Source of the DNA: Candidatus Binatus sp.
Lineage (GTDB): Bacteria > Desulfobacterota > Binatia > Binatales > Binataceae
NCBI RefSeq assembly: GCF_030646925.1
Contig: NZ_JAUSKL010000027.1
Span: 1,119-65,118, forward strand
Direction: 5' to 3'
Length of the DNA: 64,000 nucleotides
In this document: in pieces, positions 8,925-59,718 of the stretch
Numbering within the stretch: the stretch's first letter is position 1
How the letters are laid out: every line of letters starts with the position of its first letter
Position numbers and translations under genes: made by a program
The notes under the pieces: generated by a model
Told to the model about the DNA's origin: nothing
Database searches by the model: none
Seen by the model: only the letters and a program-made list of their open reading frames with translations

Positions 8925-8930
8925 ACGCTG

Positions 8931-9641: not shown

Positions 9642-9875
9642 GAAGTCGGGTCGTCACCCCCGCGGCCCCTTTGTGACCAAAGAGCCCATCATGTTCGCGC
9701 GCGGCAGCGATAATTTATTCGCGGAAATTGGGTTGCCATTTGTCGTTTCATGGCGTTTCGTGATGTGTTGAGCAGCCGACAAACAAAAGACCGGGCATGC
9801 AAAGGGCCGCAACACCAAGTCGTTATAGAGAGATAAACGTCGCCGTCGAGGCGAAAGAGGAAAGCGGCGCCTAGT

Positions 9876-13545: not shown

Positions 13546-14413
13546 TCAGGCTTTCGCGCGGGCGACCGCCAGCTCGAGTGCGCGGCGAGTATAAACCCGC
13601 GCGAGTTCGGCGCGGAAATCCGCCGCCGCGTGAATGTCGGCGAGCGCATCGACACCGTCGGCCGCGTGCGATGCGGCCGTTGCGATCGCGGCCGCAGGTT
13701 TGCCTGCGAGCGCCGTTTCGACTGCCGTGGCGCGAAACGCCTTCGAGGCCAGGCCGGTGATACCGACCCGCACTCGGGCGCAATTTCCCTGGGCGTCGAG
13801 CGCGACTACTGCGGCGACGCCGACCAGCGCGAATCCGGAAGCAGGTTGGCGATGCTTCAAATAAGCTGCGCCGGCGCCGGCTGGAAGCGGCGCGACCGAA
13901 ACGCCGGTCAGAATCTCGCCGTGCTGAACGGCCGTGGTCATGAGTGAGATCGACAAAGAAGTCCTCTGCCTTAATCGTGCGCGTGCCGCGGGCACCTTCC
14001 ACGCGGATTTCCGCCTCGAGCGCCAGGATTGCCGCCGGATAGTCCGCGGCAGGATCCGAATGGGCCAGGCTGCCGCCAATGGTGCCCCGGTTGCGGACTT
14101 GCACGTCTCCGATCAGCGCGGCGCACTCCGATAGCATCGCGAGCTTGCCCTTGACGAGCCCCGAGGATTCGACCTGGTGATGCGTGGCCAGGCCGCCGAT
14201 CACAATCCTGCCGCCTTCCTCCTTAATCTCGGCCAGGCCGGTGACGGCGCCGATATCGATGAGATACGCCGGCTGCGCCAGCCGCAGTTTCATCATCGGG
14301 ATAAGACTGTGACCGCCGGCGAGCAACTTGGCATCGTCGCCGAACTGCGAGAGCATCGCGAGCGCATCCTTGACGGAGGAGGCGCGGTGATATTCGAATG
14401 AGGCAGGAAACAT
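13546..14413 (-). pseudogene. coxM: CoxM-like FAD-binding medium subunit of a molybdenum hydroxylase, frameshifted
   Basis: The N-terminal part (ORF 13532..14413) reads MFPASFEYHRASSVKDALAML...KLLAGGHSLIPMMKLRLA...IKAEDFFVDL. The continuation, MTTAVQHGEILTGVSV...AAADFRAELARVYTRRALELA, lies in ORF 13546..14079. The frames switch near 13945. Confidence 0.8.
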
Positions 14414-14417
14414 CGGG

Positions 14418-16760: not shown

Positions 16761-16781
16761 CGCTCTCTCCTTGGAAATCGT

Positions 16782-17257
16782 TCAAGCGCGCTCGCTGGAA
16801 CGCATCTTTTCAGCGGCGTACTGGATCGCCTTGATGATGTGCTGGTAGCCGGTGCATCGACACAGGTTGCCCTCGAGCGCCTCGCGGATTTGCGCCTCAG
16901 TCGGGTTCGGGTTTCGGCTCAAGAGATCCGTCGCCGTCATGATCATGCCGGGTGTGAATAGCCGCATTGAAGGCCGTGCTCCTCCCAGAAGCCTTCCTGA
17001 ATAGGATTCATCTTGCCGTTTTTGGCGAGGCCCTCGACAGTCGTGATTTGGCTGCCTTCAGCCTGCACGGCGAGTGTGGTGCACGACTTGACCGCTTGCC
17101 CATTGATCAGCACCGTGCATGCGCCGCACAGCGAGGTCTCGCATCCGACATGGGTGCCGGTCAGTTGCGCGACATCGCGGAGGTAGTGCACGAGCAGCAT
17201 GCGCGGGTCGATGTCGTCATCGTGGCGCTCGCCGTTGATCGTGACAGTTAGCTGCAT
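16782..17257 (-). pseudogene. coxS: CoxS-like [2Fe-2S] small subunit, frameshifted
   Basis: ORF 16943..17257 ends ...EEHGLQCGY|SHPA and ORF 16782..16967 continues (R)[14 protein letters not shown]...CRCTGYQHI. The expected sequence GLQCGYCTPGMIM is restored by adding one G near 16957. Confidence 0.85.
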
Positions 17258-17431
17258 AGTTATGTCGCTCCTGAGGATAATGTTGGCCCGTTCCGGGTAA
17301 ACATTCGCTGCCCAGCCTCGCCGTCGGTAAGAGTTCTCCTCTGACCTGTTCGGCGAACGGTCGAGATCTAACCGAACGCGGCTCGGCCCGTAGCGCGGGC
17401 GGGCCGCATCCGGAAAGCTTGATCGTAACTA

Positions 17432-18562: not shown

Positions 18563-19218
18563 TTATGAGGCCCCTTGTTTCAGCACGTTGCGCGTATCCT
18601 GCGCAACGTCGGTAGTAATTAAGTCCGCGCCTTTGTACTTCTTCACGATTTTGCCGTCGGGCGCGACCAGGAAAACATAATCGAGCGCGTCCATGATTTT
18701 GGCCGGCTCCTCCTCTCTGCCCACCACCGGCAAGCCAAAGCGCCCGAGCATCCAATCGATATTGTCGGGAGAGCCGGTCAGCAGGTCCAGCGCGAGGTGT
18801 CGAGGTGCATATCTCTGGCATAGCGAGCCAGCCGCTTCGGTCCATCGAAGACCGGGTTGTAGGTTACCAGTACGAATTGAACGTTCTGCCCCTGCGCCGC
18901 TCCGAGTTCGTCTGCGACCCGATGCAGATTGTTGGTGGTAAGTTGGCACATGCCGGTGCAGGCGGTGTCGATGAAGGCGATGAGCAGGGGCTTGCCAGTC
19001 AAGGATCTGGCTTCGACCGGCTTGGCATCCTGGTTGAAGAGCACCAGCTTTGGCGAAACCCCCTGCAGCCCTGGTCCCAAGGATGGCGCGGAGTTGGTCG
19101 CGCGCCCGCCGCAGGCTGCGAATGAGACCGCAGCGGCGATCGCCAGTGCATACATCGCGTGGCGCCTGATCGAGACCGCGAACCGCGACTTCATTTGTCG
19201 AACACCTCTGACCCGCAA
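18563..19218 (-). pseudogene. SCO1/SenC-family copper chaperone, frameshifted
   Basis: ORF 18778..19218 has a lipoprotein-like N-terminus and AFIDTACTGMCQ in place of the usual CxxxC. It ends ...RYARDMHLDTSRW. The continuation DLLTGSPDNIDWMLGRFGL...YVFLVAPDGKIVKKY is in ORF 18563..18949. One G is missing near 18788. Confidence 0.7.
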
Positions 19219-19266
19219 GACTTCATGAGCGGGCGACCCGCCACTCGGAACATTGGCTGCACGACC

Positions 19267-19458
19267 TCAGGCGCTGCCGACAGCGCGAATACGGCTGCGC
19301 ATCTCGGTCTTGTGCAGCGCGGCCAGATGTTCCCGTCTGAGCGCACGCTTGGCGCAGGGATCGAAGCTGAGGCCCGGGCCGCCCCCGTGTGCCCACGCCG
19401 ATCCCGCATAGGTCGGGCTAAGCAGCAAACCAACGACCAAACTAACTCTACGGCTCAC
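19267..19458 (-). CDS. hypothetical small secreted protein
   Basis: 63-aa ORF with a signal-like N-terminus, MSRRVSLVVGLLLSPTYAGSAWAHGG, lying between the monooxygenase B subunit and SCO1. I recognise no family. Confidence 0.25.
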   Translation of the reverse strand: MSRRVSLVVGLLLSPTYAGSAWAHGGGPGLSFDPCAKRALRREHLAALHKTEMRSRIRAVGSA

Positions 19459-19550
19459 CGTCTTATCACTCTGAACCAGCTCACTGAACGCTGCCTGGAC
19501 CCGGATGCGCGCACAGCTTCGTCGGAGTCGCCGACACCGGCTTGTTGAGA

Positions 19551-20835
19551 TTAGATCCCCGTCTTCGCTGGAGCACCCTGCCGCGCGAAAGTAGGAATTA
19601 TTTCGCTGTCGAACTCCACCAGCGAACGGTTGTTATCCGAGTCAAAGAACATGAACAGTCCACCTAGTCGGCTGGTTGGGTCCGCGATCAGCAATGCCAG
19701 CCGATCTGTCTCCCACACCTCGCTGCTGGCCAGGATGTGTAGCGCTTTCGTCTCGCCGGGCTGAATCGGCTCGTTGGGCTCGACCACGAGGCCGGCTGGC
19801 GCAATCAGCTCAGGCGGATAATCAGATTCTGGTTGGCGGACGGATGAGTTCAGGAACCTCACCGCCGCGGTAGTAAACTCACCAATCCGCACCGGCTTGG
19901 TACCGTTGTTAGTGACCTTTACCCAGAACTCCACCATGCGTCCGGGAATGTAGTATATGACGCGATCCGCAGTCACGGTGATGGTATCGGGCTGCTTGGG
20001 CAGGGGAGGAATCCGCAACCAGGTGGACTGCAACGGGATAGTCACTGGATACCACGCGTTGGTAACCAGGGCGCCCAGGACGACGATCACAATAGTCGCA
20101 CCGAGAAAGGCGATGCCTACGATCTTGTCGGTCGTAATAAGGCTGTCACCCTCGCCGTGTTCCAAGGCTTCGTATCTAGGCATCAGCAGAGGTTTGGCGA
20201 TCCAGTACATGAGCCATCCAACTGCCATCAATGCCCACAGCACATGCCAACTGACTACCGCACCCATCCCGTAGTGCGCCAAATCCAGCTTTACACCGGT
20301 CAGCGTCGTGATCGGATCGGTGAAGGCGGCCCTGTCGCCGTCGACCGTGACCCAATCGCCGGGGCCCAGGAGCGGGCCCGCATCGCGCACGCTGAGCATG
20401 GGATGTATGTGATAGCGCCCTGGGATTCTGCCGCGCAGGACGATCGTATATTCGTAGTCTCTGCCAAGCTCGAGCGGCGTCGAAGCGGCGCCATTAACGC
20501 CGTTTAGCGTGCTGGCCATACGGACCATCACCGGCCCTGGGCACGTCAACGTTGAGATACGCCAGTTCGGGCGCGGCGATCGCGAATGACCAAAACTTAA
20601 CGATGTGAAAACGCCCGGATATAGTCATCTGCTCGTTTACATTGACGCGAGTCGACGACCAGTGCGTATCATACCACTGTACGGTGGCCATCCTTAGAAA
20701 CGGGGGTTCGGCGCGCTCGCCGTGCGCCGCCGCCGTTCCTGGCGCCAGCGCGGCCGCGATGCTCACAGCAATTACTAGTGACAGCGCTGAGGCTCTGACC
20801 GACACCGTCTTCGAAATGAACCTTTTCGATTGCAT
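19551..20835 (-). pseudogene. copper membrane monooxygenase subunit B (PmoB/AmoB family), frameshifted
   Basis: MQSKRFISKTVSV...AAAHGERAEPPFLRMATVQWYD...LAYLNVDVP is in ORF 20494..20910. GPVMVRMASTLNG...GRYHIHPML... is in ORF 19551..20549. An extra C near 20540 separates them. The N-terminal HGE and the HxH copper-ligand motifs are present. Confidence 0.8.
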
Positions 20836-20891
20836 TAGTTTACCCCATTCCGGCGCCATTGACGGGGCCCGTCGCGAGACGATCGATAGAG

Positions 20892-21497
20892 TTATATGCG
20901 CTTGAGCCAACTAAACTGAGCTTTGGTAAATAGATAGCCGACGCCGACGAATAATATGTACACCACCATGCAGGCAAACGCCGCGAAGAACATCGATATA
21001 TAGATCGGATCCTGGCCGAAGGAGCGTAGCGTGCCCCGGTCAATATACCTCAGATATTCGGGAGTTCCGGTCCTCACGAACTGATAGCCCATTACATCGG
21101 CGAGCGACATGAGGAAGCCGTTCATGTTGGTAGGCAACATGTAGCGCGCCAGCATCACCCAGTTCGCGGGGTAGAACAGCAGTGACCAAAGCCCGCCGCC
21201 GATGATCGCCGTCATGACGTAGCTGCCAGTCAGCATCAAGATAACGTCAAGCGCTATTCCCGACGGAATCAGCGTCGCCGGCCATACAAAGTCGAGCGGG
21301 AAGTAGCCCCACCCGGCGAAGTTGGCGGTCCAATTCAGCCACTCGCCAGCGACCAGGCAGAGGGTCAGGAGCGTCGCCGCGAACGGGAGCCTGAACTTTT
21401 GCCAGAAGATGTACTGGACCGCGGCGGGCATCGAGATCAGGATCATAGGCGTCAAAGTGATCCACCATCGCCGATCTTTCCAATCCACCCAGCACTT
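20892..21497 (-). pseudogene. copper membrane monooxygenase subunit A (PmoA/AmoA family), 5'-truncated
   Basis: Family similarity starts abruptly at WVDWKDRRWWITLTPMILISMPAAVQYIFW... and runs to the C-terminus (...GYQFVRTGTPEYLRYIDRGTLRSFG...). The first TM helix and the GDWDFW region are absent in all three frames upstream. No C subunit lies upstream. Confidence 0.75.
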
Positions 21498-21678
21498 CGC
21501 GCGTGTGCTCGCCGAGCCGTGGCGCACCGCGGCGAATCGAGGTTGGTGTCCTATCGAATCGTGCCGGCGCGCGGGTTTGTCTGCGGCGTCCCGCCACCGG
21601 GTGATCCTGAACTTCGCGCGCTCCGGCGGCAGACTGCGACGGGCGATGAATCGAGCCCGAATACCTGCTGATGTTTTC

Positions 21679-21705
21679 GGGCAGGGCGGCAGTGCCGCCC
21701 TGCCC
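21679..21705 (-). other. perfect 12-bp GC-rich stem-loop after the stop of the 126-aa gene
   Basis: GGGCAGGGCGGC-AGT-GCCGCCCTGCCC. The T run (ATGTTTTC) precedes it on the + strand, so on the - strand it is followed by GAAAACA. It is therefore not a canonical intrinsic terminator in either direction. Confidence 0.5.
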
Positions 21706-21714
21706 ATCGTGGAC

Positions 21715-22095
21715 TTACTGTCCGGGTGGTGCGGCGGCCTTGGCCATCTCCTGGTGCTCCTTAGCGAGCTTTGAGTTGTCAGCCGCAATTTTGTCCCACA
21801 TCGCGGCTATCCCGTCGCACATCTCCGCCATGTAGGCGGGCTTGTGAATCCTCATCTTACGATAGGTCTCCGCCGTACGCCGATGGAGGTCGGCCTTTTG
21901 CTTGGCGTTTGCTGCTTGTTGCTCGTAGAACGCGGCAATCGCTTCATGTTCCGCCGGCGTCTTCGCGCTCGTGATCATCTGGTCCAGGTCGTCGTCTGTG
22001 ACGACTGGCTGTTGAGCACCTGCCCGAATGGTGGGCAGGGCGGCCGCAGCAAGCAGTAGCAGTCCCGCTGCAAGCAACATCGTTACTCGCTTCAT
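21715..22095 (-). CDS. periplasmic helical protein, unknown function
   Basis: ATG at 22095 preceded by GGGAGGAG. Signal peptide MKRVTMLLAAGLLLLAAAALPTIRAGA. The mature part is A/K/E/M/H-rich and helical. It sits among copper-related genes. Confidence 0.6.
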   Translation of the reverse strand: MKRVTMLLAAGLLLLAAAALPTIRAGAQQPVVTDDDLDQMITSAKTPAEHEAIAAFYEQQAANAKQKADLHRRTAETYRKMRIHKPAYMAEMCDGIAAMWDKIAADNSKLAKEHQEMAKAAAPPGQ

Positions 22096-22277
22096 TTTCT
22101 CCTCCCGTTCCTTTTTCGCCGCCGTCACGAACTCGCGCGGGGCCGTTTGGAAAGCTAATTCTATGCCAATGCCAATAGCAGTTTTCTTCCTCTAACCAGC
22201 TGCGGCTCTCTGTACCTTGTCTGATCACCTCCTCAGCGGGCGCGCCATCTTGCGTAATCGATCCGCTTGCCTCGCGC

Positions 22278-23177
22278 CTAGTACCAGACCCGGATTCCGA
22301 AGACGAAGCGCACATCATTGACGATGCCACCTTCGTCGCGGGTGAAATCCGCCGTCTCACCGAATTTACCGTTGTAGGCTACGCCGATATAGGGCGCGAA
22401 TTTGCGACTGATTTCGTAGCGCAGGCGGAGACCCGTATCGAGCTCTGAAAGCCCCGAACCGGCGCCGCGGCTGGGATCGTTCTTGTTGTAAAAGTTCAAC
22501 TCGAATTGAGGCTGCAATATCAGGCGATTCGTAATCAGCATATCGTAGAAGCCATTCACGCGCCCTGCGATGCGGCCCCCGTCGCTGAAATAGAAGGTGA
22601 GCTCGAATTCGAAGAAATTAGGGGCCAAGCCCTCGATTCCGATCGCTCCCCAAGTGCGCCCGGGATTGGAATCCAGGTCGTAGCGAACGCCCGCTTGCAG
22701 GTCGAAATATCTAAGATGCGGTATCGGGCGCGCGTAGAGCGCCTCGGTAATTCCGTCGCTAGCTTGGCCGTTCTCAAAGGAGCCCTCGGACTTGAACCAC
22801 AGCCGATTCAGATCGGTGCCGATCCATGCCTCCCCGTCCCAGCGAAACTCGTTGTCCGGACCGTTGGTGCGGCCTTCCAACTGATTGAACAGCAGATGAT
22901 AGAAGACCCTATCCTCACCCATCGAAGATGGCTCTTCTTTCGGATAGGTCGGCGCAGGTTCAGGCGACGGCATCACCGACGAACCGGGTTGGGGATAGGG
23001 CGCTTGGCCGGAGGAGTTCTGAGCATTCGATACGATTGACTGAGCGTTTGCCCGCACGCTGCCCAGAATCACAATCAGGCAAACGAATCCAACCAAACGT
23101 CTGAATCCGGCAATCGTATCGGTAAACGCGCGCGGAATTGCGCGCGGGGTCTTTATCACCAAACCTGACGTGCTCAT
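22278..23177 (-). CDS. copB: copper resistance protein B (outer membrane, CopB/PcoB family)
   Basis: ...FYHLLFNQLEGR...EAWIGTDLNRLWFKSEGS...LRYEISRKFAPYIGVAYNGKFGETA...VRFVFGIRVWY. The ATG at 23177 overlaps the copA stop (ATGA). Confidence 0.8.
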   Translation of the reverse strand: MSTSGLVIKTPRAIPRAFTDTIAGFRRLVGFVCLIVILGSVRANAQSIVSNAQNSSGQAPYPQPGSSVMPSPEPAPTYPKEEPSSMGEDRVFYHLLFNQLEGRTNGPDNEFRWDGEAWIGTDLNRLWFKSEGSFENGQASDGITEALYARPIPHLRYFDLQAGVRYDLDSNPGRTWGAIGIEGLAPNFFEFELTFYFSDGGRIAGRVNGFYDMLITNRLILQPQFELNFYNKNDPSRGAGSGLSELDTGLRLRYEISRKFAPYIGVAYNGKFGETADFTRDEGGIVNDVRFVFGIRVWY

Positions 23178-24994
23178 GACACGATCACGGTCAGGAACAT
23201 TCCGGTTTCCATGTGGAAGAACAGGTGACAATGAAATGCCCAGTGCCCAGGCGTATCCGCGCTGACGAGGAAGCTGAGGCGCTCCGCCGGCTTGACGTTG
23301 AGCGTGTGTTTGTAGGGGCGATATTCCCCGTTGCCGTTCTCCAGTTCGCTCCAGAGACCGTGCAGATGGATCGGATGCTCCATCATGGTGTCATTGATCA
23401 GAACGAAGCGCACCCGCTCGCCAAGCTTCAAACGAATGGGCGCATTCTGTGAGAACGTCCTGCCGTTGAACCCCCAGATGAACCGCTCCATGTTTCCGGT
23501 CAGGTGAAACTCGAACTCACGATCCGGAGGGCGCGGATCGGCGCCACGGTAACGCGCGCGCAGGTTCGCGTAGGTGAGGATCCGGCGGCCATTACCCTCG
23601 AGACCAGCTCCAGGCTCAGCTAGCCGGTCGGTAGTCGTCTCGGCAACGTGGTCGACTTCCGGCCCGAGCTGCAGTTGAACCGGATTCGCCACCGGGAGAT
23701 GACTCTGCCCAATGGACGGCGACGGCTTTGGAGTTGCCATCTCCATGCCGGGCATGCTGCCCATATCCCCTTCGGCGTGGCCCGGCGAGGGTTGCACCGA
23801 CTGCAGTTTGGACGAGGGGTGGCCCATCTCCATTCCCGGCATGCTGCCCATGCCCATGTCGGCCATGGTGCGCATCGGCCGAGGATCCATCGGCGGGATC
23901 GCCGCCACCACGCCGGCTCTCGGCGCTAAGGTTCCGCGAGCGTAGCCGGTTCGATCCTCGCTCTGAGCGAAGATCGTGAAGGCAGACCAATCATTGGGCT
24001 GAACGATGAGGTCATAGGTTTCAGCGACTGAGATTCGGAACTCGTCAACGTCGACAGGTTCCACATCGTTGCCGTCGGCCTGAACGACGGTCATCGCAAG
24101 GCCCGGGATGCGAACATCGAAGATCGTCATCGATGAAGCGTTGATAAAACGAAGCCGGACGCGCTCTCCTGGTTTGAACAGGCCGGTCCAGTTAGCGGCT
24201 GGCGCCAGTCCATTAAGAAGATAGGTGTAGGTTGCGCCGCTAACGTCGAGAATGTCGGTGGGACTCATGTTCATTGCGCCCCACATCAGGCGATCCGAGA
24301 GCGTTGCGCCGAGGCCGCCCTTGCGCGCATCCGATAGGAAGTTGCCTATCGTCCGCTGGTGAAAGTTGTAGTAGCTGCTTTGCTGCTTGAGATTGCTCAA
24401 TACCATTTCAGGGTTCTGGTCGGTCCAGTCCGAAAGCATAATCACGTACTCACGGTCGAACTGAATCGGATCCTTGTCCCGACGCTCGATAATCAGCGGT
24501 GCGTAATGTCCGGTCTGTTCCTGAAACGCGCTGTGGCTGTGATACCAGTAGGTACCGTACTGTCGGACCGGAATGCGGTAAACGAACGTCGCGCCCGGAT
24601 CGATGCCGGGAAAGCTCAGCCCGGGGACCCCATCCATGTCCGCCGGAGATCGGACGCCGTGCCAATGTACTGATGTCTGCTCCCGCAAGCGGTTGGTGAC
24701 AGAAAGCGTGACCGTGTCACCTTCCCGCCAGCGCAGCAGCGGCCCCGGAACAGATCCGTTGATCGCGGTGGCGATTGCTGGCCGACCAGTGATATTGACC
24801 GCTACTTCTTCGATCACAAGGTCAAAGTGATTTCCCGTAAGTACCGCTTGCTCGTTACGCGCGTTCAACGCCAGCGCCGGCCAGCGCCATAAGTCCAAAC
24901 CAGCGATCACGCCGCTGGCCATAAGTCCCTGCACGAAGCGGCGGCGGCCAATCCGGGTAGTAGATTTGTTTCCGAATAGTCTCTGCGGATACAT
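23174..24994 (-). CDS. copA: multicopper oxidase CopA (Tat-exported)
   Basis: Twin-arginine signal RRRFVQGLMASG, copper motifs HWHG, YWYHSH and HCHLFFHMETGM, and Met-rich repeats (GMGSMPGMEMG, GDMGSMPGMEM). The start is taken at the internal MYPQRLF (24994). Confidence 0.85.
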   Translation of the reverse strand: MYPQRLFGNKSTTRIGRRRFVQGLMASGVIAGLDLWRWPALALNARNEQAVLTGNHFDLVIEEVAVNITGRPAIATAINGSVPGPLLRWREGDTVTLSVTNRLREQTSVHWHGVRSPADMDGVPGLSFPGIDPGATFVYRIPVRQYGTYWYHSHSAFQEQTGHYAPLIIERRDKDPIQFDREYVIMLSDWTDQNPEMVLSNLKQQSSYYNFHQRTIGNFLSDARKGGLGATLSDRLMWGAMNMSPTDILDVSGATYTYLLNGLAPAANWTGLFKPGERVRLRFINASSMTIFDVRIPGLAMTVVQADGNDVEPVDVDEFRISVAETYDLIVQPNDWSAFTIFAQSEDRTGYARGTLAPRAGVVAAIPPMDPRPMRTMADMGMGSMPGMEMGHPSSKLQSVQPSPGHAEGDMGSMPGMEMATPKPSPSIGQSHLPVANPVQLQLGPEVDHVAETTTDRLAEPGAGLEGNGRRILTYANLRARYRGADPRPPDREFEFHLTGNMERFIWGFNGRTFSQNAPIRLKLGERVRFVLINDTMMEHPIHLHGLWSELENGNGEYRPYKHTLNVKPAERLSFLVSADTPGHWAFHCHLFFHMETGMFLTVIVS

Positions 24995-25065
24995 GGCTAA
25001 CTTTCCCTCACATGATCGTTTCGATAGCGTCTCAAGCTCGCGGCGGAAGTGGAATCGAGACTGAA

Positions 25066-26094
25066 TTGCGAAGACCCACGAAATCTCACAAAGAAAGCGC
25101 ACACCGACTTAATTCAATCTTCGGGTTTTGCCTCGTCTCATGGCTCGCGCTGCCATCGCAAGCGCTTGCCTCGGAAGTCCCGCTGCCACTGTCAGCCGCA
25201 AAACCAAACGCGATCCAGAACGCGCAAGCCGAAGAACCTCCGCTGCAAGATCTGTTGCGTAAGCTGTTCGATCCTGTCGTTGGCTGGTACCCGCCGGAAT
25301 CCAGACGTTCGAACCTCGGCCTCAACAACTTTTTCACTTACGGATGGACTGAAGGATGGAGCGAACCCGAGGAGGGACCGGATGACGCCCCGCGATTTCG
25401 GTTGCTCCGAATCCAGCGGGCATTCTGGGAGCGCGAGCTCCGCCTCACTTACAACTCTGCGTTTCGTCCCGATGCGCATGGCAACGACGAGCAAGAAGGC
25501 GAGTTCGAACTGGAGCTCCCTATAAGCCGTCGCTTCCTGATCGAATTCGAAGGGGGCGTCGCTGCGGCGCGCCAGGCCGGCCGTCACTGGATGGCGCAAG
25601 CATCTGACCTTCGAATCACGCCTGAGGTGATGTTGATCGAAACGCATCGACTCTCTTTTTCCAGCGGGCTGGTGGTGGAGACTCCCACCGGCGGTCGAGC
25701 AGTCGAGCAAGGGCGAACCAGTCTGACGCCCTATCTCGCGCTGTGGGGAGACTTGGGCCATAGGATTGGCCTCCACAGTTACCTGGGGAGCGAATTTCCG
25801 CTCGGCGGTTCTGGGTCTTCCTCGCCAACTGCCGTGCTGCAATACGCGATCGCTCCCAGCATCACGGTAACGCCAAAATCGATGGATTACCTCGGCGACC
25901 TGACCTTCTTCATCGAAGGCGACGGTGAAACGAGGGCGGGCAACCGCATCAGCCGAACCACGCTGAACCTGCTGCCGGGCACGCGATGGCTGGTATTCAG
26001 AGACACATGGATCGCGGCGGGGTACGAGTTTCCGATAACCGAACCAAAACCGTTCACCGGTCGCGCTTGGGTCAGTTTGTATCTGGATTTTTGA
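25066..26094 (+). CDS. putative outer-membrane beta-barrel protein
   Basis: ORF 25012..26094. A TTG at 25066 gives the signal peptide MRRPTKSHKESAHRLNSIFGFCLVSWLALPSQALA. It has alternating beta-strand-like segments and a C-terminal ...VSLYLDF. Confidence 0.5.
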   Translation: MRRPTKSHKESAHRLNSIFGFCLVSWLALPSQALASEVPLPLSAAKPNAIQNAQAEEPPLQDLLRKLFDPVVGWYPPESRRSNLGLNNFFTYGWTEGWSEPEEGPDDAPRFRLLRIQRAFWERELRLTYNSAFRPDAHGNDEQEGEFELELPISRRFLIEFEGGVAAARQAGRHWMAQASDLRITPEVMLIETHRLSFSSGLVVETPTGGRAVEQGRTSLTPYLALWGDLGHRIGLHSYLGSEFPLGGSGSSSPTAVLQYAIAPSITVTPKSMDYLGDLTFFIEGDGETRAGNRISRTTLNLLPGTRWLVFRDTWIAAGYEFPITEPKPFTGRAWVSLYLDF

Positions 26095-44616: not shown

Positions 44617-45180
44617 ATGGGACCAGTTCCCAAGGGCGCTTTCTTGACCAAGGGCGCGGGCAGGCATCGCGAGAAACTCACTTCCTTCGAACTAGCGCTG
44701 CGCGCTGCAGGTATCGCGGAGTTCAACCTGGTGCGCGTCAAATCGATCTTCCCGCCCAATTGCAAGCTGCTGAGCCAGCAGGAAGGGATGAAATACCTGG
44801 CGCCGGGGCAGATCGTTTTTGCAGTGATGAGCGACAACGCCACCAACGAACCGCATCGATTGATCGCGTCGTCGGTCGGTGTCGCGATTCCCGCCAATCC
44901 GTCGCAGTACGGCTACCTCTCGGAGCATCACAGCTTCGGCGAGACCGATCAGAAGGCGGGCGACTACGCCGAAGACCTCGCGGCGTCGATGCTCGCGACG
45001 ATCCTCGGCGTCGATTTCGATCCGAATCTCAGCTACGACGAGCGCAAGGATATCTGGCGCGTGTCGGACAAGATCGTCACAACGCGCAACGTCACGCAGT
45101 CAGCGATCGGCGATCGCGACGGGCTGTGGTCAACGGTGGTCGCGGCGGCGGTGTTCGTCGATATGCCCAATGGGCGGTAG
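44617..45180 (+). CDS. pdaD: pyruvoyl-dependent arginine decarboxylase-like protein
   Basis: FLTKGAGRHREKLTSFELALRAAGIAEFNLVRVKSIFPP matches the PdaD N-terminus. The expected self-cleavage Ser is present as K-S rather than S-S. Confidence 0.7.
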   Translation: MGPVPKGAFLTKGAGRHREKLTSFELALRAAGIAEFNLVRVKSIFPPNCKLLSQQEGMKYLAPGQIVFAVMSDNATNEPHRLIASSVGVAIPANPSQYGYLSEHHSFGETDQKAGDYAEDLAASMLATILGVDFDPNLSYDERKDIWRVSDKIVTTRNVTQSAIGDRDGLWSTVVAAAVFVDMPNGR

Positions 45181-45234: not shown

Positions 45235-45483
45235 ATGGCAACTGAAATTCTCTACTGCGCAGTCTGAGGCTACAAGCCGCGCGCGGCCAGTCTGGCCGCA
45301 TCATTGAAAAGCAAGTTCGGCGAGGATGTGCAAATCACGCCGGGGAAATCGGGCCAATTCGACGTGATTGCCGACGGCCGCCTGATTTTCTCGAAGTCGC
45401 AATCGGGCCGGTTCCCGGTCGAAGATGAAGTCGAGGAAATCTTCGGCGCGATCAAGGACGGCAAGCAACCGCCCGCGAAATAG
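45235..45483 (+). CDS. SelW/Rdx-family selenoprotein (in-frame TGA = Sec at codon 11)
   Basis: Not in the ORF track. It reads ATG..MATEILYCAV-TGA(45265..45267)-GYKPRAASLAASLKSKFGEDVQITPGKSGQFDVIADGRLIFSKSQSGRFPVEDEVEEIFGAIKDGKQPPAK-TAG. The YC-x-x-U motif and G.F.V..DG.LI.SK...GRFP are the Rdx-fold pattern. Confidence 0.7.
45283..45299 (+). promoter_or_regulatory. putative bacterial SECIS hairpin
   Basis: GCGGCCA-GTC-TGGCCGC, a 7-bp perfect stem with a G/U-containing apical loop. It starts 16 nt after the TGA. Confidence 0.45.
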
Positions 45484-45506: not shown

Positions 45507-46601
45507 CTATGGATGCATATCGAGGAAATCCTTGAAGCCGCTCTTGTCGTGCGGACCGAAGATCGCCATCTCGAGGATGCCCATCCCTTCGCGCGTGCCG
45601 AGCTTCGCCTTGCACACCGCCTGGATGTGCTGATGAATCAGGTCGCGCTCATCGACGTCGGCGGTCTTGAACGATTCGTAGGTTGATTCGTCGGGACCGA
45701 CGTACATCGCGTGCCCCCACTTCGGATGAAAATATCCGATGCCCTGCATGTAGAAGTTGTATAGCTGCTTGAGTTCGATGCGGCTTTCGCCGGCCTTGGG
45801 CGTTCGCAAAATGATCTCGGCGCTCTTCGCGTGGCGCGTATTCGGCGCATAGTTGACGTTGAAATCGACCGCGGTCGCGAGATCGAGCTCGGCGCCGGGC
45901 TCCGCGCGCGTGATCGCGCCGAATTCGTGCCATCGCGAGCCGTCGGCATAATCATTGACGTCGAAGTGCGTGCAGAGATCTTCGAAATTGGTTGGCGACC
46001 ACAGCCAATAGAATTGCGCCAGCGGATTGCCCGGCACGCCGGCCGGATCTGCCGGGCCGATGCCGCGCACGCCCCACGAGCGATCGCGCGATCCCCACAC
46101 TCGCGACGGGCGTGCATCGTATTTTTTGCCGCCGACGCTGAGGCTGCCCGAATAGCCGCCGTGCTGCGTGAAGCGCGTCAGATCCATCGTGATTCTCGGG
46201 CCGGTGCGCCGCGTGAAGCGCGGTTCCTCGATCGCGTTGGCGCGCGCCTCGAAGATGAGATCCGCCTTGATGGGATCCTTATCGACGCGGATGCGCATCG
46301 TGCGCATCGGCTTGACAATTTCGATCGAGATCGGCCCGACGCGCGTGTCGAGCCGATCATCGCCGAGCACCCGCGACGCGCGCACGCAATGCTGCACGCC
46401 GCCGGCAATCACGCTGAACGCGCAATCGATTATCCCGACATTGGGGTAGATGCCCATCGCGGCGGCGAAGTACGGCTCGCCCTCGCGGAAATATCCGTTG
46501 AAGAAAAAGCGGTCGTAAAAATTCCGGTCGCTGGTAAAAACCTGCTGCACCGGCTCGGGCGTCTGATGGATCGGATAGTCGTCGCCGCTGGTGATCATCA
46601 C
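45507..46601 (-). CDS. conserved hypothetical protein
   Basis: 364-aa ORF with normal, non-repetitive composition. I recognise no family. Confidence 0.6.
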   Translation of the reverse strand: MMITSGDDYPIHQTPEPVQQVFTSDRNFYDRFFFNGYFREGEPYFAAAMGIYPNVGIIDCAFSVIAGGVQHCVRASRVLGDDRLDTRVGPISIEIVKPMRTMRIRVDKDPIKADLIFEARANAIEEPRFTRRTGPRITMDLTRFTQHGGYSGSLSVGGKKYDARPSRVWGSRDRSWGVRGIGPADPAGVPGNPLAQFYWLWSPTNFEDLCTHFDVNDYADGSRWHEFGAITRAEPGAELDLATAVDFNVNYAPNTRHAKSAEIILRTPKAGESRIELKQLYNFYMQGIGYFHPKWGHAMYVGPDESTYESFKTADVDERDLIHQHIQAVCKAKLGTREGMGILEMAIFGPHDKSGFKDFLDMHP

Positions 46602-54645: not shown

Positions 54646-55041
54646 TCAGTTGGACGGCGTCGTGATTGGCGGGACGGTGACCGTCGGCGCACCGCCGCCC
54701 GACGGCCCGATGTATTCCGGCAGGCTCTCGATTCCGCCCGACCCGATATTCGGCGTCACGTGTTCGATCGTTTCGTCCGAATCGGATTGCGAGTCACCGC
54801 CGTAATGCTTCATCACTTGTTGCTGGACTTGCGCCGGCGAGAGTTTCGGCTTGATGCCTTCGTTGTGCGCGAGCGCCGCGCGGCTGTCGGCATCCATGTT
54901 GCGCCAGATTTCGCCGGCCTGCGCGCCGTTGCCGCGATTCAGCGCTTCGAGAAATTGCTGCTGTTGCGATTCCTTATGCCAGCATCCCGCGACACCAAGC
55001 ACGCAAGCCGCTACGAGAATCGCTGCGTGATGAGACTTCAT
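54646..55041 (-). CDS. small lipoprotein
   Basis: MKSHHAAILVAACVLGVAGC lipobox. Unknown function. Confidence 0.5.
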   Translation of the reverse strand: MKSHHAAILVAACVLGVAGCWHKESQQQQFLEALNRGNGAQAGEIWRNMDADSRAALAHNEGIKPKLSPAQVQQQVMKHYGGDSQSDSDETIEHVTPNIGSGGIESLPEYIGPSGGGAPTVTVPPITTPSN

Positions 55042-55051
55042 AAACATTTCG

Positions 55052-56179
55052 TCACGCCGCCTTCGCATCGCCGAACGTCACGACGCTTCGAATCGATTTC
55101 CCCTCGTGCATCAGGTGAAACGCGTCGTTGATTTTCTCGAGCGGCATCACGTGCGTGATCAGATCGTCGATGTTGATGCGGCCGTCCATGTACCAATCGA
55201 CGATTTTCGGAACGTCGCGCCGGCCCCGCGCGCCACCGAACGCAGTGCCTTTCCACGTCCTGCCAGTGACGAGCTGAAATGGCCGCGTCGAAATTTCCTG
55301 GCCCGCGCCCGCGACGCCGATGATCACCGACGTGCCCCATCCGCGCTGACAGCATTCGAGCGCCTGGCGCATCAGCGTCACGTTGCCGATGCATTCGAAC
55401 GAGAAGTCCGCGCCACCGCGCGTGAGATTGACGACGTACGGCACCAAGTCGCCTTCGACTTCGGCCGGATTGACGAAGTGCGTCATCCCGAATTTTTCCG
55501 CGATCGCCTTGCGCGCCGGATTCAGATCGATGCCGACGATCATCGACGCGCCGGCCAGCCGCGCGCCTTGCACGACGTTCAGGCCGATGCCGCCGAGGCC
55601 GAACACCACCACCCGATCGCCGGGCTGCACCTTCGCCGTATTGATCACCGCGCCGATTCCCGTCGTGACGCCGCATCCGATGTAACAAATTTTTTCGAAC
55701 GGCGCGTCTTCGCGAACTCTGGCGAGCGCGATCTCGGGCACCACCGTGAAATTGGCGAACGTCGAGGTGCCCATGTAGTGATGAATCATCTTGCCGTCGC
55801 GAGAAAAACGGCTGGTGCCGTCGGGCATCACGCCGCGGCCCTGCGTCTCACGAATCGCGACGCACAGATTGGTCTTGCCCGACAGGCACGCGGGACAGTT
55901 GCGGCATTCCGGGATGTAGAGCGGTATCACGTGATCGCCGCGCTTCAGGGTGGTGACGCCCGCGCCGGTTTCGATCACGACGCCTGCGCCCTCATGCCCC
56001 AGGATCGACGGGAACAGACCCTCGGGATCGGCGCCCGACAACGTAAACGCGTCGGTGTGACAAACGCCGGTCGCCTTGATTTCGACGAGCACCTCGCCCG
56101 CCTTCGGACCTTCGAGATCGACGCACGCGATTTCGAGCGGCTCGCCGGCCTTGTTTGCGATTGCTGCATTCACTTTCAC
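55052..56179 (-). CDS. class III alcohol dehydrogenase / S-(hydroxymethyl)glutathione dehydrogenase
   Basis: C-terminal 375 codons of the 820-aa ORF, from GTG 56179. (M)[16 protein letters not shown]...[30 protein letters not shown]...GLGGIGLNV. Confidence 0.85.
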
Positions 56180-56275
56180 AACTGATATTTCTACGCGCCG
56201 AAATTCGCGCCGTCCACCGCGCCGCGAGATTCGCCGGAGTTGGGATTCGCCGGTGTCATGCGGTACTTTGCCGGC

Positions 56276-57139
56276 ATGGAAAAAATCGGACGTGTCGCAG
56301 AAATTTGGCGCTATCCCGTGAAGTCGATGGCCGGCGAACGGCTCGAGCGCGCTTCGGTGGGGACGCGCGGAATTCCGGGCGATCGCGGATGGGCGCTGCG
56401 CGATGAGAAAGCCGGTGAGATTCGCGGCGCGAAAAAAATGCCCGCCTTGATGAAATGTCAGGCGCACTACGTCAGCGAACCATCGGCAACCGAAATTCCG
56501 GCGGCGGAAATCACGCTCCCCGACGGCGCCAAATTCAAGACCGGCGCTCCCGACGCAAATCAAAAACTTTCCGATCTGCTCGGACGGCCGGTGACGCTGT
56601 GGCCGCTTCAGCCCGTCACGGCACGCGAGCACTACCGCCGCTCCGCGCCCGACAATCCCGACATGATGCAGGAACTGCGGCAAATTTTCGGCCGCCTCGA
56701 AAACGAACCGATTCCCGACATTTCGATGTTCGGTCCCGAGATTCTCGAATTCACTTCGCCGCTCGGAACCTACTTCGACGTGATGCCAATTCATCTCGTC
56801 ACTACCGCGTCGATCGAAAAGCTGCGCGAGCTTACGCCCGGCGCGAAGATCGACGTGCGCCGCTTCCGCCCCAACGTATTGATCGAGACGAACGCGGGGA
56901 TGACTGGTCTGGTCGAGGCGAACTGGACCGGCCGCACGCTCAGAATCGGCGCGGCGCGAATCAAGATCGAGATGCCGTGCGTGCGCTGCGTGATGACGAC
57001 GCTCGAGCAGATCGATTTGCCGAAGGATCCCTCCGTGCTGCGCACTATCGTGCGCGATGCTGACCAGAATGTCGGCTCGTATTGCACAGTCGCCGGCGGC
57101 GGCGCGTTCGCAATCGGCGACGACGTCGCGCTCGAGTAG
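56276..57139 (+). CDS. MOSC domain protein
   Basis: [21 protein letters not shown]... and ...PCVRCVMTT. Confidence 0.8.
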
Positions 57140-58627: not shown

Positions 58628-59718
58628 ATGCGTGCTACCGTAATGCGCAATAAAAAACTCGTGGTCGATAATAATATTCCTACCCCAACCCCCGGCGTGG
58701 GCGAGGTGCTGGTCAAAACGCTCGCCTGCGGCATCTGCGGATCCGATCTGCACTTCCTCAAATTTTCCGACAAGCTGGTCGAGGGCGCGCGACGCTCCGG
58801 CGGTCCGTTCGTGATGGATCTCAGCCGTGACATCGTGATGGGCCACGAGTTCTGCGCCGAGCTGGTCGATTACGGACCTGGCACGCAAAAGCGATTCAAA
58901 CCGGGTCAGCGGATCTGCGCGATGCCGATTCTGATCAAGCCGACCGGCGTCGAGACGGTCGGGTACTCCAACGACAACCCCGGCGGATACGCGGAGTTGA
59001 TGCGGCTCAGCGAATCGTTGCTGCTGGAAGTGCCCAATGGTCTTTCGACCGAGCGCGCGGCCCTGACTGAGCCGATGGCGGTCGGATATCACGCCGTGCA
59101 GATGGCGCGGCTGCAGCAGGATGATGCGCCGCTCGTGATCGGATGCGGACCGGTCGGGCTGTCGGTGATTGGCGCGCTCAAGCTGAAGGGCGTGCATCCG
59201 ATCGTCGCGGCGGATTTTTCGCCGCGCCGCCGCGAACTCGCTCAGCAGATGGGCGCTGACCTGGTAGTCGATCCGAAGCTGAAGTCGCCCTACGAATCAT
59301 GGAAGAGCAGATGGCGACCTACCCCGATCCTTCGCGCGCGCCCGCGCTGCCGCCGTGGATGCCCGGACCGGCGCTCAGGCCAGCCGTGATTTTCGAATGT
59401 GTCGGCGTCCCTGGCGTAATCGAGGCAATCATGTCGGGCGCGCCGTCACACGCACGCGTTGTCGTCGTCGGCGTATGCATGGAACGCGATCAAATCGAGC
59501 CGATGTACGGCACCAACAAGGAATTGAATCTCCAGTTCGTGCTCGGCTACACCGCCGACGAGTTCGCGCAGACGCTGCACAACCTCGCCGAGGGCAAAGT
59601 GAACGGCGATCCGCTCATCACCGGCAAAGTTGGCGTCGAGGGAGTTGCGAAAGCCTTCCAGGATTTAGCCTCACCGGAGACGCACGCGAAGATTCTGGTC
59701 GAACCGTGGCATAGCTAG
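58628..59718 (+). pseudogene. Zn-dependent medium-chain dehydrogenase, one frameshift
   Basis: ORF 58628..59389 (…GICGSDLHF…GHEF…LTEPMAVG…GCGPVGL…DPKLKSPYES) continues in ORF 59299..59718 (MEEQMATYP...VIFECVGVPGVIE...AKILVEPW). The frames switch near 59296-59300. Confidence 0.7.

What the first reader, a model, noticed from the sequence alone, without database searches (positions are those of the whole stretch)
45235..45483. Unannotated SelW/Rdx-like selenoprotein with C-x-x-U and a SECIS-like hairpin
The ORF track shows only junk ORFs here. Reading through the TGA at 45265..45267 gives an 82-codon protein, MATEILYCAV-U-GYKPRAASLAASLKSKFGEDVQITPGKSGQFDVIADGRLIFSKSQSGRFPVEDEV.... It has the Rdx/SelW fold signature: a beta1-CxxC/U redox motif, then G.F.V..DG.LIFSK...GRFP. 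The TGA sits exactly where the second redox residue (Cys or Sec) belongs. A perfect 7-bp hairpin, GCGGCCA-GTC-TGGCCGC, begins 16 nt downstream, where bacterial SECIS elements lie. If real, the organism has a selenocysteine-insertion system.
Basis: partly seen in the sequence, partly recalled or inferred. Interest (0 to 1): 0.65.

Follow-up and report, generated by a model that had tools for sequence, protein, structure and literature searches.

The report
Unannotated SelW-like selenoprotein gene
A small redox-protein gene of the well-known SelW/Rdx family is missed by gene callers because it contains a UGA codon that most likely encodes selenocysteine, directed by a conserved RNA hairpin just downstream; it is real but an ordinary example of a known kind.

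Summary
Window 45235-45483 (+) is an 82-codon ORF with one in-frame TGA (45265-45267) in a C-x-x-U motif, and a perfect 7-bp hairpin (45283-45299) follows it.

With U read as C, the product scores well above the curated cut-offs for Pfam Rdx and NCBIfam TIGR02174 (SelT/SelW/SelH). A model of a 73%-identical orthologue has the Rdx fold.

The window comes from a Candidatus Binataceae-type bacterium. All 80 orthologous loci from different species-level genomes keep TGA at this codon, with the protein conserved on both sides.

TGA is also the commonest ordinary stop in the window, so the recoding is local.

The hairpin meets all four published bacterial SECIS criteria. Its codons show almost no synonymous variation (Ser-AGT 78/78). 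Across 79 diverse family members it shows real covariation at a fixed 22-nt spacing.

Sec and Cys alternate at this position across the family.

Not shown: selA, selB, selC and selD are absent from this 64-kb window, and the rest of the genome could not be searched. Two of five Cys forms also keep a similar hairpin.

Verdict: a genuine SelW-like selenoprotein gene with a SECIS element. It is a new member of a known kind and of low to moderate interest.

The parts
45235..45483 (+). SelW-like / Rdx-family selenoprotein gene: 82 codons plus a TAG stop, with one in-frame UGA
   Evidence: sequence and translation; Pfam Rdx, TIGR02174; PDB sequence matches to 2LJK, 2FA8, 2P0G, 2NPB; 80 orthologues with the same architecture.
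45256..45267 (+). Redox motif C-A-V-U (Cys8 TGC at 45256-45258; Sec11 TGA at 45265-45267), lying in the beta1-alpha1 loop
   Evidence: In one search the motif aligns to CxxC of MIEN1 and Atu0228. In one search beta1 spans residues 3-7 and alpha1 spans 14-28 in the orthologue model. Searches show Cys/Sec alternation in this column.
45265..45267 (+). UGA codon, inferred to be decoded as selenocysteine
   Evidence: TGA is present in 80 of 80 Binataceae orthologues and 80 of 80 diverse metagenome relatives. TGA is otherwise a normal stop in this window, used by 23 of 48 genes.
45283..45299 (+). SECIS-type hairpin: 5' arm 45283-45289, loop GUC 45290-45292, 3' arm 45293-45299. There are 22 nt between the UGA and the loop.
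   Evidence: MFE -12.0 kcal/mol, and all four criteria of the model quoted are met; synonymous entropy is about 0 at codons 17-21; pair counts and covariation; 64 of 64 Sec forms with peptide AASLAA use Ser-AGT and form all three pairs that depend on synonymous choice.
44617..45180 (+). Upstream pyruvoyl-dependent arginine decarboxylase gene. It lies 54 nt upstream on the same strand and is probably co-transcribed (context only).
   Evidence: PF01862; upstream neighbour in 76 of 78 loci; gaps are mostly 36-64 nt; no promoter-like or terminator-like site in between.

Best explanation
The region encodes a small (82-residue) thioredoxin-fold redox protein of the SelW-like/Rdx family. Its second active-site residue is selenocysteine, giving a C-x-x-U motif.

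The gene is probably transcribed together with the upstream arginine decarboxylase gene. During translation the ribosome reaches UGA at codon 11. The hairpin 15 nt downstream (7-bp stem, loop GUC, made from the codons for the alpha1-helix peptide A-A-S-L-A) acts as a bacterial SECIS element. The SECIS recruits SelB-GTP-Sec-tRNA(Sec), so Sec is inserted instead of termination occurring.

Shown here:
- the ORF, and its family and fold membership;
- universal retention of TGA, with purifying selection on both sides of it;
- RNA-level constraint and covariation of the hairpin;
- Sec/Cys alternation across the family;
- normal use of TGA as a stop codon elsewhere in the window.

Inferred, not shown:
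- that the inserted residue is Sec, which requires selA, selB, selC and selD elsewhere in the genome;
- co-transcription with the upstream gene;
- a thiol/selenol oxidoreductase function, whose substrate is unknown, as it is for the whole family.
For: **Family membership.**
- Pfam Rdx: E = 2.3e-18, 66.6 bits against a cut-off of 22.6.
- TIGR02174 CXXU_selWTH: 58.1 bits against 34.2.
- PDB sequence hits: MIEN1, Atu0228, the Vibrio SelW-related protein and mouse SelW, with CxxU aligned on CxxC.
- AlphaFold model of orthologue P0001: pLDDT 86.6, topology b1-a1-b2-b3-b4-a2.
- The top 23 Foldseek hits are all Rdx-family structures.

**The UGA is translated.**
- 80 of 80 Binataceae species-level orthologues have TGA at codon 11.
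- Codons 2-10 and 12-70 are conserved at the protein level with free synonymous variation. For example, Ala2 and Thr3 each use 4 codons.
- 80 of 80 diverse metagenome relatives also have TGA.

**The recoding is local.** TGA terminates 23 of 48 window genes.

**SECIS.**
- All four published criteria are met: 7-bp stem; 3-nt loop matching the A-GUC-U pattern; 22-nt spacing; -12.0 kcal/mol.
- Synonymous entropy is about 0 at codons 17-21, against 1.7-2.0 bits at neighbouring 4- and 6-fold codons. Ser19 is AGT in 78 of 78 cases, although AGT is only 6.8% of Ser codons in this window.
- One-sided changes that keep pairing within Binataceae are all wobble-type, and so work only on the sense-strand RNA.
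- Family-wide there are 43 double-sided changes against 15.0 +/- 2.9 in shuffles (0 of 500 reach it). The covariation score is 0.293 against at most 0.12 in slid controls. The pair joining two Ala third positions shows six pair types.
- The same 22-nt spacing is found in 82 of the 92 distinct Sec forms whose hairpin passes my model-compliance search.

**Sec/Cys alternation.**. DNA was checked for two 'CxxW' calls, and both are TGA.
Against: - No selA, selB or selD gene and no tRNA at all was found in the 64-kb window. There is no tRNA in 60 orthologous loci. The rest of the genome could not be searched.
- No Rfam family matched. Whether Rfam holds a bacterial SECIS family was not checked, so this weighs little.
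- The hairpin's folding energy in this single sequence is not significant against shuffles.
- Four of its seven pairs follow automatically from the Ala codons of the conserved peptide.
- The Cys-form control is only partly discriminating. Three of five Cys homologues have lost the hairpin. L166 and L167 keep 6 of 7 in-register pairs and a GU loop.
- There is no direct evidence of expression or of selenium in the protein.
Confidence: 0.88

Rival explanations
1. The UGA is recoded with the help of the hairpin, but to cysteine or another standard amino acid and not to selenocysteine. This could work through a SelB-like factor with a Cys-charged tRNA(Sec)-like tRNA, or through a dedicated suppressor tRNA. 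From my own knowledge, such deliberate UGA-to-Cys recoding systems have been described in a few bacteria.
For: The Sec-specific enzymes (SelA, SelD) were not found, so the identity of the inserted residue is inferred. The comparative evidence shows recoding and a SECIS-type element. It does not show which residue is inserted.
Against: SelW-like is one of the most abundant bona fide bacterial selenoprotein families: 427 Sec forms against 56 Cys forms in GOS, and the most abundant family in the Sargasso Sea set. If Cys were inserted, a plain TGC codon would do, and it does occur in the Cys forms. Retention of TGA plus the hairpin in 80 of 80 genomes implies a benefit specific to the recoded residue.
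Confidence: 0.06
2. Translation starts downstream of the UGA, for example at the TTG at 45304. This would give a 59-residue protein without the redox motif. On this view the upstream part and the hairpin are a leader or regulatory element, which is how most public gene callers annotate the orthologues.
For: Public gene calls for homologues begin at 'LAASL...' or later. The ORF list gives 45304-45483.
Against: - Codons 1-10 (MATEILYCxx) are conserved at the amino-acid level with free synonymous change in 80 genomes. This is not expected of an untranslated leader.
- The Rdx fold needs beta1 and the CxxC/U loop.
- Cys forms of the family are full-length.
- The downstream 'starts' fall inside the conserved helix and hairpin and differ between gene calls.
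Confidence: 0.03
3. The gene is a nonsense pseudogene, or the TGA is a sequencing or assembly error, and the hairpin is a chance palindrome.
For: The window does hold at least one broken gene, the frameshifted adh, and fragmentary Mo-hydroxylase genes. Taken alone, the hairpin is not statistically unusual.
Against: - The same TGA is present in 80 of 80 independent genomes and in 80 of 80 distant relatives.
- There are no other stops or frameshifts in the gene.
- An independent assembly gives the identical sequence.
- Purifying selection acts on both sides of the TGA.
- The hairpin shows synonymous constraint and covariation.
Confidence: 0.01

Closest known systems
Bacterial SelW-like selenoproteins (Pfam Rdx PF10262 / NCBIfam TIGR02174; Zhang & Gladyshev 2005, PMC1088965; GOS analysis, PMC2398784)
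   Same: Small size, the CxxU motif near the N-terminus, the Rdx thioredoxin-like fold, an in-frame UGA followed by a small-loop hairpin with a G in the loop, and the existence of Cys homologues.
   Different: It comes from a soil/groundwater Candidatus Binataceae lineage, for which I found no report of selenoproteins. The family was described mainly from marine samples.

It scores just below the Campylobacter-type equivalog NF041051: 82.5 bits against a cut-off of 88.

The window's copy lacks the basic C-terminal tail (…KKPEGFVGRMLGKLRN) that most Binataceae orthologues carry.
Mammalian selenoprotein W (PDB 2NPB) and MIEN1/C17orf37 (PDB 2LJK)
   Same: The same Rdx fold and the same position of the CxxU/CxxC motif.
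   Different: Eukaryotic SelW uses a 3'-UTR SECIS with a kink-turn core and SBP2/eEFSec. Here the element lies inside the coding region, 15 nt after the UGA, as in bacteria. Sequence identity is only about 25-30%.
Cys-containing bacterial Rdx proteins (Atu0228 2FA8; Vibrio cholerae 2P0G; P. fluorescens 2OBK; SAV_2001 3DEX)
   Same: Closest structural matches to the orthologue model: target TM 0.76-0.87, rmsd about 1-1.7 A.
   Different: They have CxxC encoded by TGC/TGT and therefore need no recoding.
E. coli fdhF SECIS (the archetypal bacterial SECIS)
   Same: A hairpin inside the ORF shortly after the UGA, with a small apical loop. Here the loop begins G-U and fits the consensus model quoted.
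   Different: The stem starts 15 nt after the UGA. In fdhF the distance is 11 nt and there is a bulged U in the stem; both fdhF details are from my own knowledge and were not tested here. Here the stem is a perfect 7-bp helix without a bulge. SelB binding was not tested.

Membership tests
Rdx / SelT-SelW-SelH family (Pfam PF10262; NCBIfam TIGR02174) | Profile-HMM score above the curated cut-off | tested here: met
   PF10262 scores 66.6 bits against 22.6, covering profile positions 3-71 of 74. TIGR02174 scores 58.1 bits against 34.2.
Rdx / SelT-SelW-SelH family (Pfam PF10262; NCBIfam TIGR02174) | CxxC or CxxU redox motif in the loop between beta1 and alpha1 | tested here: met
   C8-A-V-U11 aligns to the CxxC of 2LJK and 2FA8. 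In the orthologue model beta1 spans residues 3-7 and alpha1 spans 14-28.
Rdx / SelT-SelW-SelH family (Pfam PF10262; NCBIfam TIGR02174) | Thioredoxin-like beta1-alpha1-beta2-beta3-beta4-alpha2 fold | tested here: met
   The AlphaFold2 model of orthologue P0001 (73% identical to the window protein) has pLDDT 86.6 and this element order. The top 23 Foldseek PDB hits are all Rdx-family structures, followed by thioredoxins. This was tested on the orthologue, not on the window sequence itself.
Rdx / SelT-SelW-SelH family (Pfam PF10262; NCBIfam TIGR02174) | Sec and Cys alternate at the second motif position among homologues | tested here: met
   Among 149 representatives: 48 CxxC, 37 'CxxW', 6 'CxxG' and 46 N-terminally truncated calls. 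The two 'CxxW' calls that were checked are TGA in the DNA. TGC/TGT was confirmed in 5 Cys forms.
NCBIfam NF041051 SelTWH_Campy (equivalog) | Score above the equivalog cut-off of 88 bits | tested here: not met
   The score is 82.5 bits. The protein is close to this equivalog but should not be filed under it.
Bacterial SECIS element (consensus model as quoted in PMC13188914, Fig. 2A) | Apical loop of 3-9 nt and upper stem of 4-16 bp | tested here: met
   The loop is GUC (3 nt) and the stem is 7 perfect pairs, at 45283-45299.
Bacterial SECIS element (consensus model as quoted in PMC13188914, Fig. 2A) | At least one G in the first two loop positions, usually in the pattern N1-G-[G|U]-N-N2 | tested here: met
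   A-GUC-U matches the pattern. The loop starts with GU in all 71 distinct Binataceae sequences and in 46 of 63 diverse Sec forms.
Bacterial SECIS element (consensus model as quoted in PMC13188914, Fig. 2A) | [quoted passage not shown] | tested here: met
   The spacing is 22 nt (45268-45289). The same 22 nt is found in 82 of the 92 distinct Sec forms whose hairpin passes my model-compliance search.
Bacterial SECIS element (consensus model as quoted in PMC13188914, Fig. 2A) | Minimum free energy of -7.5 kcal/mol or lower | tested here: met
   The hairpin alone gives -12.0 kcal/mol. 77 of 79 Binataceae sequences pass the threshold.
Bacterial SECIS element (consensus model as quoted in PMC13188914, Fig. 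2A) | Evolutionary support for the RNA structure beyond protein coding | tested here: met
   Synonymous entropy is about 0 at codons 17-21. Covariation: 43 double changes against 15 +/- 2.9 in shuffles (0 of 500), and a score of 0.293 against at most 0.12 in slid controls. 64 of 64 Sec forms with peptide AASLAA use Ser-AGT.

Caveat: two of five Cys forms keep a similar hairpin.
Bacterial SECIS element (consensus model as quoted in PMC13188914, Fig. 2A) | Binds SelB and directs Sec insertion at the upstream UGA | not testable with these tools
   This needs a reporter assay or a SelB-binding experiment.
Sec-decoding trait of the host genome | Presence of selA, selB, selC (tRNA-Sec) and selD | tested here: inconclusive
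   None were found among about 49 genes of the 64-kb window. There is no tRNA in the window or in 60 orthologous loci.

The most novel reading that the evidence does not exclude
All sampled Binataceae, a largely aerobic soil and groundwater lineage, keep this single SelW-like selenoprotein in fixed synteny (methylmalonyl-CoA mutase, then pyruvoyl arginine decarboxylase, then SelW-like). This would imply that the Sec-decoding trait is universal and under strong selection in the lineage. It would also suggest that the protein has a specific, conserved partner or role there.

In addition, the family-wide SECIS may be a deeply conserved fixed-register element. It has 22-nt spacing and an A-GUC-U loop, and it is built from the codons of the alpha1-helix peptide AASLAA. 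On this reading the peptide and the RNA have co-evolved, the element survives as a relic in some Cys forms, and it even serves UxxU variants that have two UGA codons 9 nt apart.
Probability: 0.3. Interest if true: 0.4.

Novelty: new member of a known kind. Interest (0 to 1): 0.25.

Why it matters
It corrects an annotation. The gene is invisible to standard callers, and its orthologues in public databases are systematically mis-called. They are truncated at 'LAASL…', or their TGA is translated as Trp or Gly.

It implies that this Binataceae organism, and apparently the whole family, has a selenocysteine-insertion system and needs selenium. That bears on cultivation attempts for this uncultured lineage and on estimates of selenium use in soil.

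It also provides a clean, well-sampled example of a coding sequence under dual protein and RNA constraint, which could help refine bacterial SECIS models. The mechanism and the protein family are already well known, so the conceptual gain is small.

Tried and rejected
- **Rfam scan of the window.** No hit at gathering thresholds. This is uninformative.
- **Single-sequence folding significance.** Not significant. The claim therefore rests on comparison with relatives.
- **A small hairpin directly after the UGA (GGCU…AGCC).** It is broken in 27 of 75 distinct sequences by the synonymous AAG/AAA change. Rejected as part of the element.
- **Sec machinery.** Pfam scans of about 49 window genes supplied as concatenated polyproteins and tRNA scans found nothing. 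No route was left to scan a whole Binataceae genome.
- **A second selenoprotein in the window.** The only coding-like extension past a TGA (55034-57139) is a separate MOSC-domain gene that starts after the stop. Rejected.
- **Genome-wide TGA reassignment (genetic codes 4 or 25).** Rejected, because TGA ends 23 of 48 genes.
- **Literature on Binatota/Binatia and selenocysteine.** Nothing relevant was found.
- **'Cys forms lack the hairpin' as a clean discriminator.** Only partly true: 3 of 5 lack it. I do not rely on it.
- **First metagenome scan with a very diverse alignment.** It was repeated with a tighter alignment.
- **RNA or expression evidence.** The runs that hold the sequence are all typed 'DNA?', that is, guessed to be DNA metagenomes. 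Not pursued.

Full report
**1. The observation**

Window 45235-45483 on the + strand reads ATG…TAG as 82 sense codons with one in-frame TGA at 45265-45267. The product is MATEILYCAV-U-GYKPRAASLAASLKSKFGEDVQITPGKSGQFDVIADGRLIFSKSQSGRFPVEDEVEEIFGAIKDGKQPPAK.

The palindrome GCGGCCA-GTC-TGGCCGC lies at 45283-45299, starting 16 nt after the TGA. The mechanical ORF list shows only the 59-aa tail of this gene (45304-45483, TTG start) and antisense ORFs. An independent Logan assembly of the same run is identical over 5716 nt, including the TGA.

Taken alone, the hairpin is not statistically unusual in this 62% G+C DNA. Against shuffles, z = +0.19 for 64 nt and z = -1.44 for 48 nt.

**2. What the protein is**

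With U replaced by C, the product matches three family models.
- Pfam Rdx (PF10262): E = 2.3e-18, 66.6 bits against a cut-off of 22.6.
- NCBIfam TIGR02174 'CXXU_selWTH': 58.1 bits against 34.2.
- The Campylobacter-type equivalog NF041051: 82.5 bits against 88, so it falls just short.

By sequence it matches the solved Rdx structures MIEN1 (2LJK), Atu0228 (2FA8), the Vibrio SelW-related protein (2P0G) and mouse SelW (2NPB). Its CxxU aligns on their CxxC.

An AlphaFold2 model of the full-length orthologue P0001 (73% identical) has pLDDT 86.6. Its element order is beta1(3-7), loop, alpha1(14-28), beta2, beta3, beta4, alpha2. Its 23 best PDB matches are all Rdx-family structures, followed by thioredoxins. 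Family and fold membership are therefore established.

**3. Where it comes from, and whether the UGA is translated**

A scan of one genome per GTDB species returned 80 orthologous loci. They are labelled Candidatus Binataceae, Candidatus Binatus, Candidatus Acidiferrales, or 'uncultured delta proteobacterium' or 'proteobacterium' MAGs, mostly from soil, peat and similar samples.

Every one of the 80 has TGA at codon 11. The ten codons before the TGA and the sixty after it are conserved as protein while their synonymous sites vary freely. For example, Ala2 and Thr3 each use all four codons. That pattern means both halves are translated in one frame.

It excludes a pseudogene, an assembly error and a downstream start. 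Public gene calls for these orthologues are nevertheless truncated at 'LAASL…' or later. The one full-length call has Gly at the Sec position, probably because it was called under a code that reads TGA as Gly.

In the window itself TGA is the commonest ordinary stop, used by 23 of 48 genes. These include genes whose Pfam domains are complete. The code is therefore standard and the recoding is local.

**4. The hairpin as a SECIS element**

The consensus model for bacterial SECIS elements is quoted in PMC13188914. It asks for four things:
- a 3-9-nt loop on a 4-16-bp stem;
- a G in the first two loop positions, typically N1-G-[G|U]-N-N2;
- 16-37 nt between the UGA and the loop;
- an MFE of -7.5 kcal/mol or lower.

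The window's element has a 7-bp stem and loop GUC flanked by A-U, so it reads A-GUC-U. The spacing is 22 nt and the MFE is -12.0 kcal/mol. All four criteria are met, and 77 of 79 Binataceae sequences pass the energy threshold.

*Synonymous constraint.* The five codons that make the hairpin show almost no synonymous variation across the 79 sequences:

| Codon | Amino acid | Codon use |
|---|---|---|
| 17 | Ala | GCG 78/79 |
| 18 | Ala | GCC 75/75 |
| 19 | Ser | AGT 78/78 |
| 20 | Leu | CTG 71, TTG 8 |
| 21 | Ala | GCC 69, GCT 10 |

Flanking 4- and 6-fold codons carry 1.7-2.0 bits. AGT is only 6.8% of Ser codons in this window.

Within Binataceae the helix is 98% paired. Every one-sided change that keeps pairing is a wobble type (G-C to G-U nine times, C-G to U-G three times, A-U to G-U once). 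These are tolerated only on the sense-strand RNA.

*Covariation.* The Binataceae set alone has too little variation to show covariation. I therefore fetched distant Sec forms.
- Two 'CxxW' gene calls proved to be TGA in the DNA. Both carry the hairpin at the same 22-nt spacing with compensatory stems: GCCGCCG-GUC-UGGCGGC and GCUGUCA-GUC-UGGCAGC.
- A metagenome scan then gave 80 diverse relatives, all with TGA.

The test used 79 distinct sequences spanning the family. The helix shows 43 double-sided changes against 15.0 +/- 2.9 in shuffles (0 of 500 reach it). The covariation score is 0.293 against at most 0.12 for any slid control. Paired cells are 86.6% against 24-54% in the slid controls.

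The most variable pair joins the third positions of two Ala codons and shows six standard pair types. The protein sequence cannot explain that.

**5. Caveats on the hairpin**

Four of the seven pairs are produced automatically by the Ala codons (GCN…GCN) of the conserved alpha1-helix peptide A-A-S-L-A-A. The RNA-specific signal lies in the other three pairs and the loop.
- With the peptide held fixed at AASLAA, 64 of 64 Sec forms use Ser-AGT and form all three of those pairs.
- The one Cys form with the same peptide (L083) uses GCG-GCG-AGC-CTG-GCG-GCG and forms one of the three.

Of five Cys forms whose DNA I could read, three have lost the element. Two (L166, L167) keep 6 of 7 in-register pairs and a GU loop. 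These may be relics of recent Sec-to-Cys conversion. The expectation that Cys forms lack the hairpin is only partly borne out, and I do not rely on it.

Some clades of Sec forms have a different stem in the same place. One is L110-type, with an 8-nt loop starting GU. Another is L121-type, CUCUC-CGUGC-GAGAG, with a changed peptide. A few have only weak hairpins.

**6. Sec/Cys alternation**

Among 149 representatives of the wider family, 48 read CxxC. Another 37 read 'CxxW' and 6 read 'CxxG', which are most likely TGA translated under codes 4 and 25. A further 46 are N-terminally truncated calls.

The literature describes SelW-like as a major bacterial selenoprotein family: 48 genes in the Sargasso Sea set, and 427 Sec against 56 Cys forms in GOS (also 56).

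**7. Context**

The gene sits 54 nt downstream of a pyruvoyl-dependent arginine decarboxylase gene, which follows methylmalonyl-CoA mutase. It converges on a conserved 364-aa protein without a Pfam domain, a chlorite-dismutase-family (HemQ-like) gene and a cobyrinate a,c-diamide synthase.

PvlArgDC lies immediately upstream in 76 of 78 loci, with gaps mostly of 36-64 nt. No promoter-like or terminator-like site lies between them. Co-transcription is likely but is inferred. The synteny suggests no obvious biochemical link.

**8. What remains open**

No selA, selB or selD gene and no tRNA is present in the 64-kb window. There is no tRNA in 60 orthologous loci either.

I found no paper linking Binatota with selenocysteine. 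The identity of the inserted residue as Sec is therefore inferred from three things: the family, the SECIS-type element, and the universal retention of TGA where TGC would otherwise do.

A SelB-like system inserting Cys is a low-probability alternative. Direct tests are listed under next steps.

**9. Verdict**

This is a genuine, unannotated SelW-like (Rdx-family) selenoprotein gene with an in-ORF bacterial SECIS element. My confidence is about 0.88.

It is a new member of a well-known kind in a lineage where it had not been reported. It is useful for annotation and for inferring a selenium requirement in Binataceae, but it would not surprise a specialist. Interest is 0.25.

Noticed in passing
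The shift is near 59290-59300: frame 2 reads …SPYESWK, then frame 1 continues …EQMATYPDP…VIFECVGVPGV. It could be a real pseudogene or an assembly indel.
   Followed up: partly
window 14135-17428: Molybdenum-hydroxylase (CoxL/CoxS-like) genes look fragmentary. MoCoBD_2 covers only profile positions 1-145 of 283, Ald_Xan_dh_C only 60-109 of 110, and Fer2_2 only 1-31 of 75. Several short ORFs fill the gaps. This suggests frameshifts or decay in the region.
   Followed up: no
window 18778-25108 (-): A copper-monooxygenase cluster: SCO1/SenC (18778-19266), a PmoB/AmoB-like gene (19551-20624), a PmoA/AmoA-like gene (20892-21806) and a multicopper oxidase (23174-25108). A pmoC-like gene would be expected near 21.9-22.7 kb, but my gene picker did not capture one there.
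   Followed up: no
window 1556-12554: A block of large genes (an SMC/AAA_23-like ATPase of 1103 aa, an SNF2-family helicase of 996 aa and a DUF499-like protein of 905 aa). Its codon-position G+C contrast is weaker than in the rest of the window. It looks like a defence or mobile island.
   Followed up: no
loci L109, L117, L122, L124, L125 (metagenome relatives): These SelW-like genes have two in-frame TGA codons, 'ILY-U-G-M-U-NYKPQAVSLAD'. That is a UxxU motif instead of CxxU, followed by a single hairpin (CCGUCA-GUU-UGGCGG). The GOS paper reports UxxU only for a Prx-like family. I found no mention of UxxU in SelW-like proteins.
   Followed up: partly
loci L166 (501-743) and L167 (501-734): These Cys-containing (TGC/TGT) Rdx homologues still carry a SECIS-like hairpin in the same register. 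They keep 6 of 7 pairs, with loops GUU and GUC. They may be relics of Sec-to-Cys conversion.
   Followed up: partly
proteins P0002-P0032 and P0034-P0181 (public gene calls): Public gene predictions for this family are systematically wrong around the Sec codon. They are N-terminally truncated, or TGA is translated as W or G. Several truncated calls are nevertheless named 'selT/selW/selH-like putative selenoprotein' by JGI.
   Followed up: yes
window 45460-45483, compared with loci L002-L081: The window's protein ends at …DGKQPPAK. It lacks the basic amphipathic C-terminal tail (…KKPEGFVGRMLGKLRN) present in most Binataceae orthologues. About 15-20 orthologues are similarly short, so the tail appears dispensable.
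   Followed up: partly
window 45507-46601 (-): A conserved 364-aa protein with no Pfam match converges on the SelW-like gene. It keeps that position in 51 of 78 orthologous loci. Its function is unknown.
   Followed up: no
window 56240-57139 (+): An ORF beginning …[29 protein letters not shown], read by eye as a MOSC-domain gene (no Pfam scan was run on it), starts just after the TGA at 56183-56185. It briefly looked like a read-through candidate. The real gene in 55.05-56.2 kb is probably on the minus strand and was not identified.
   Followed up: partly
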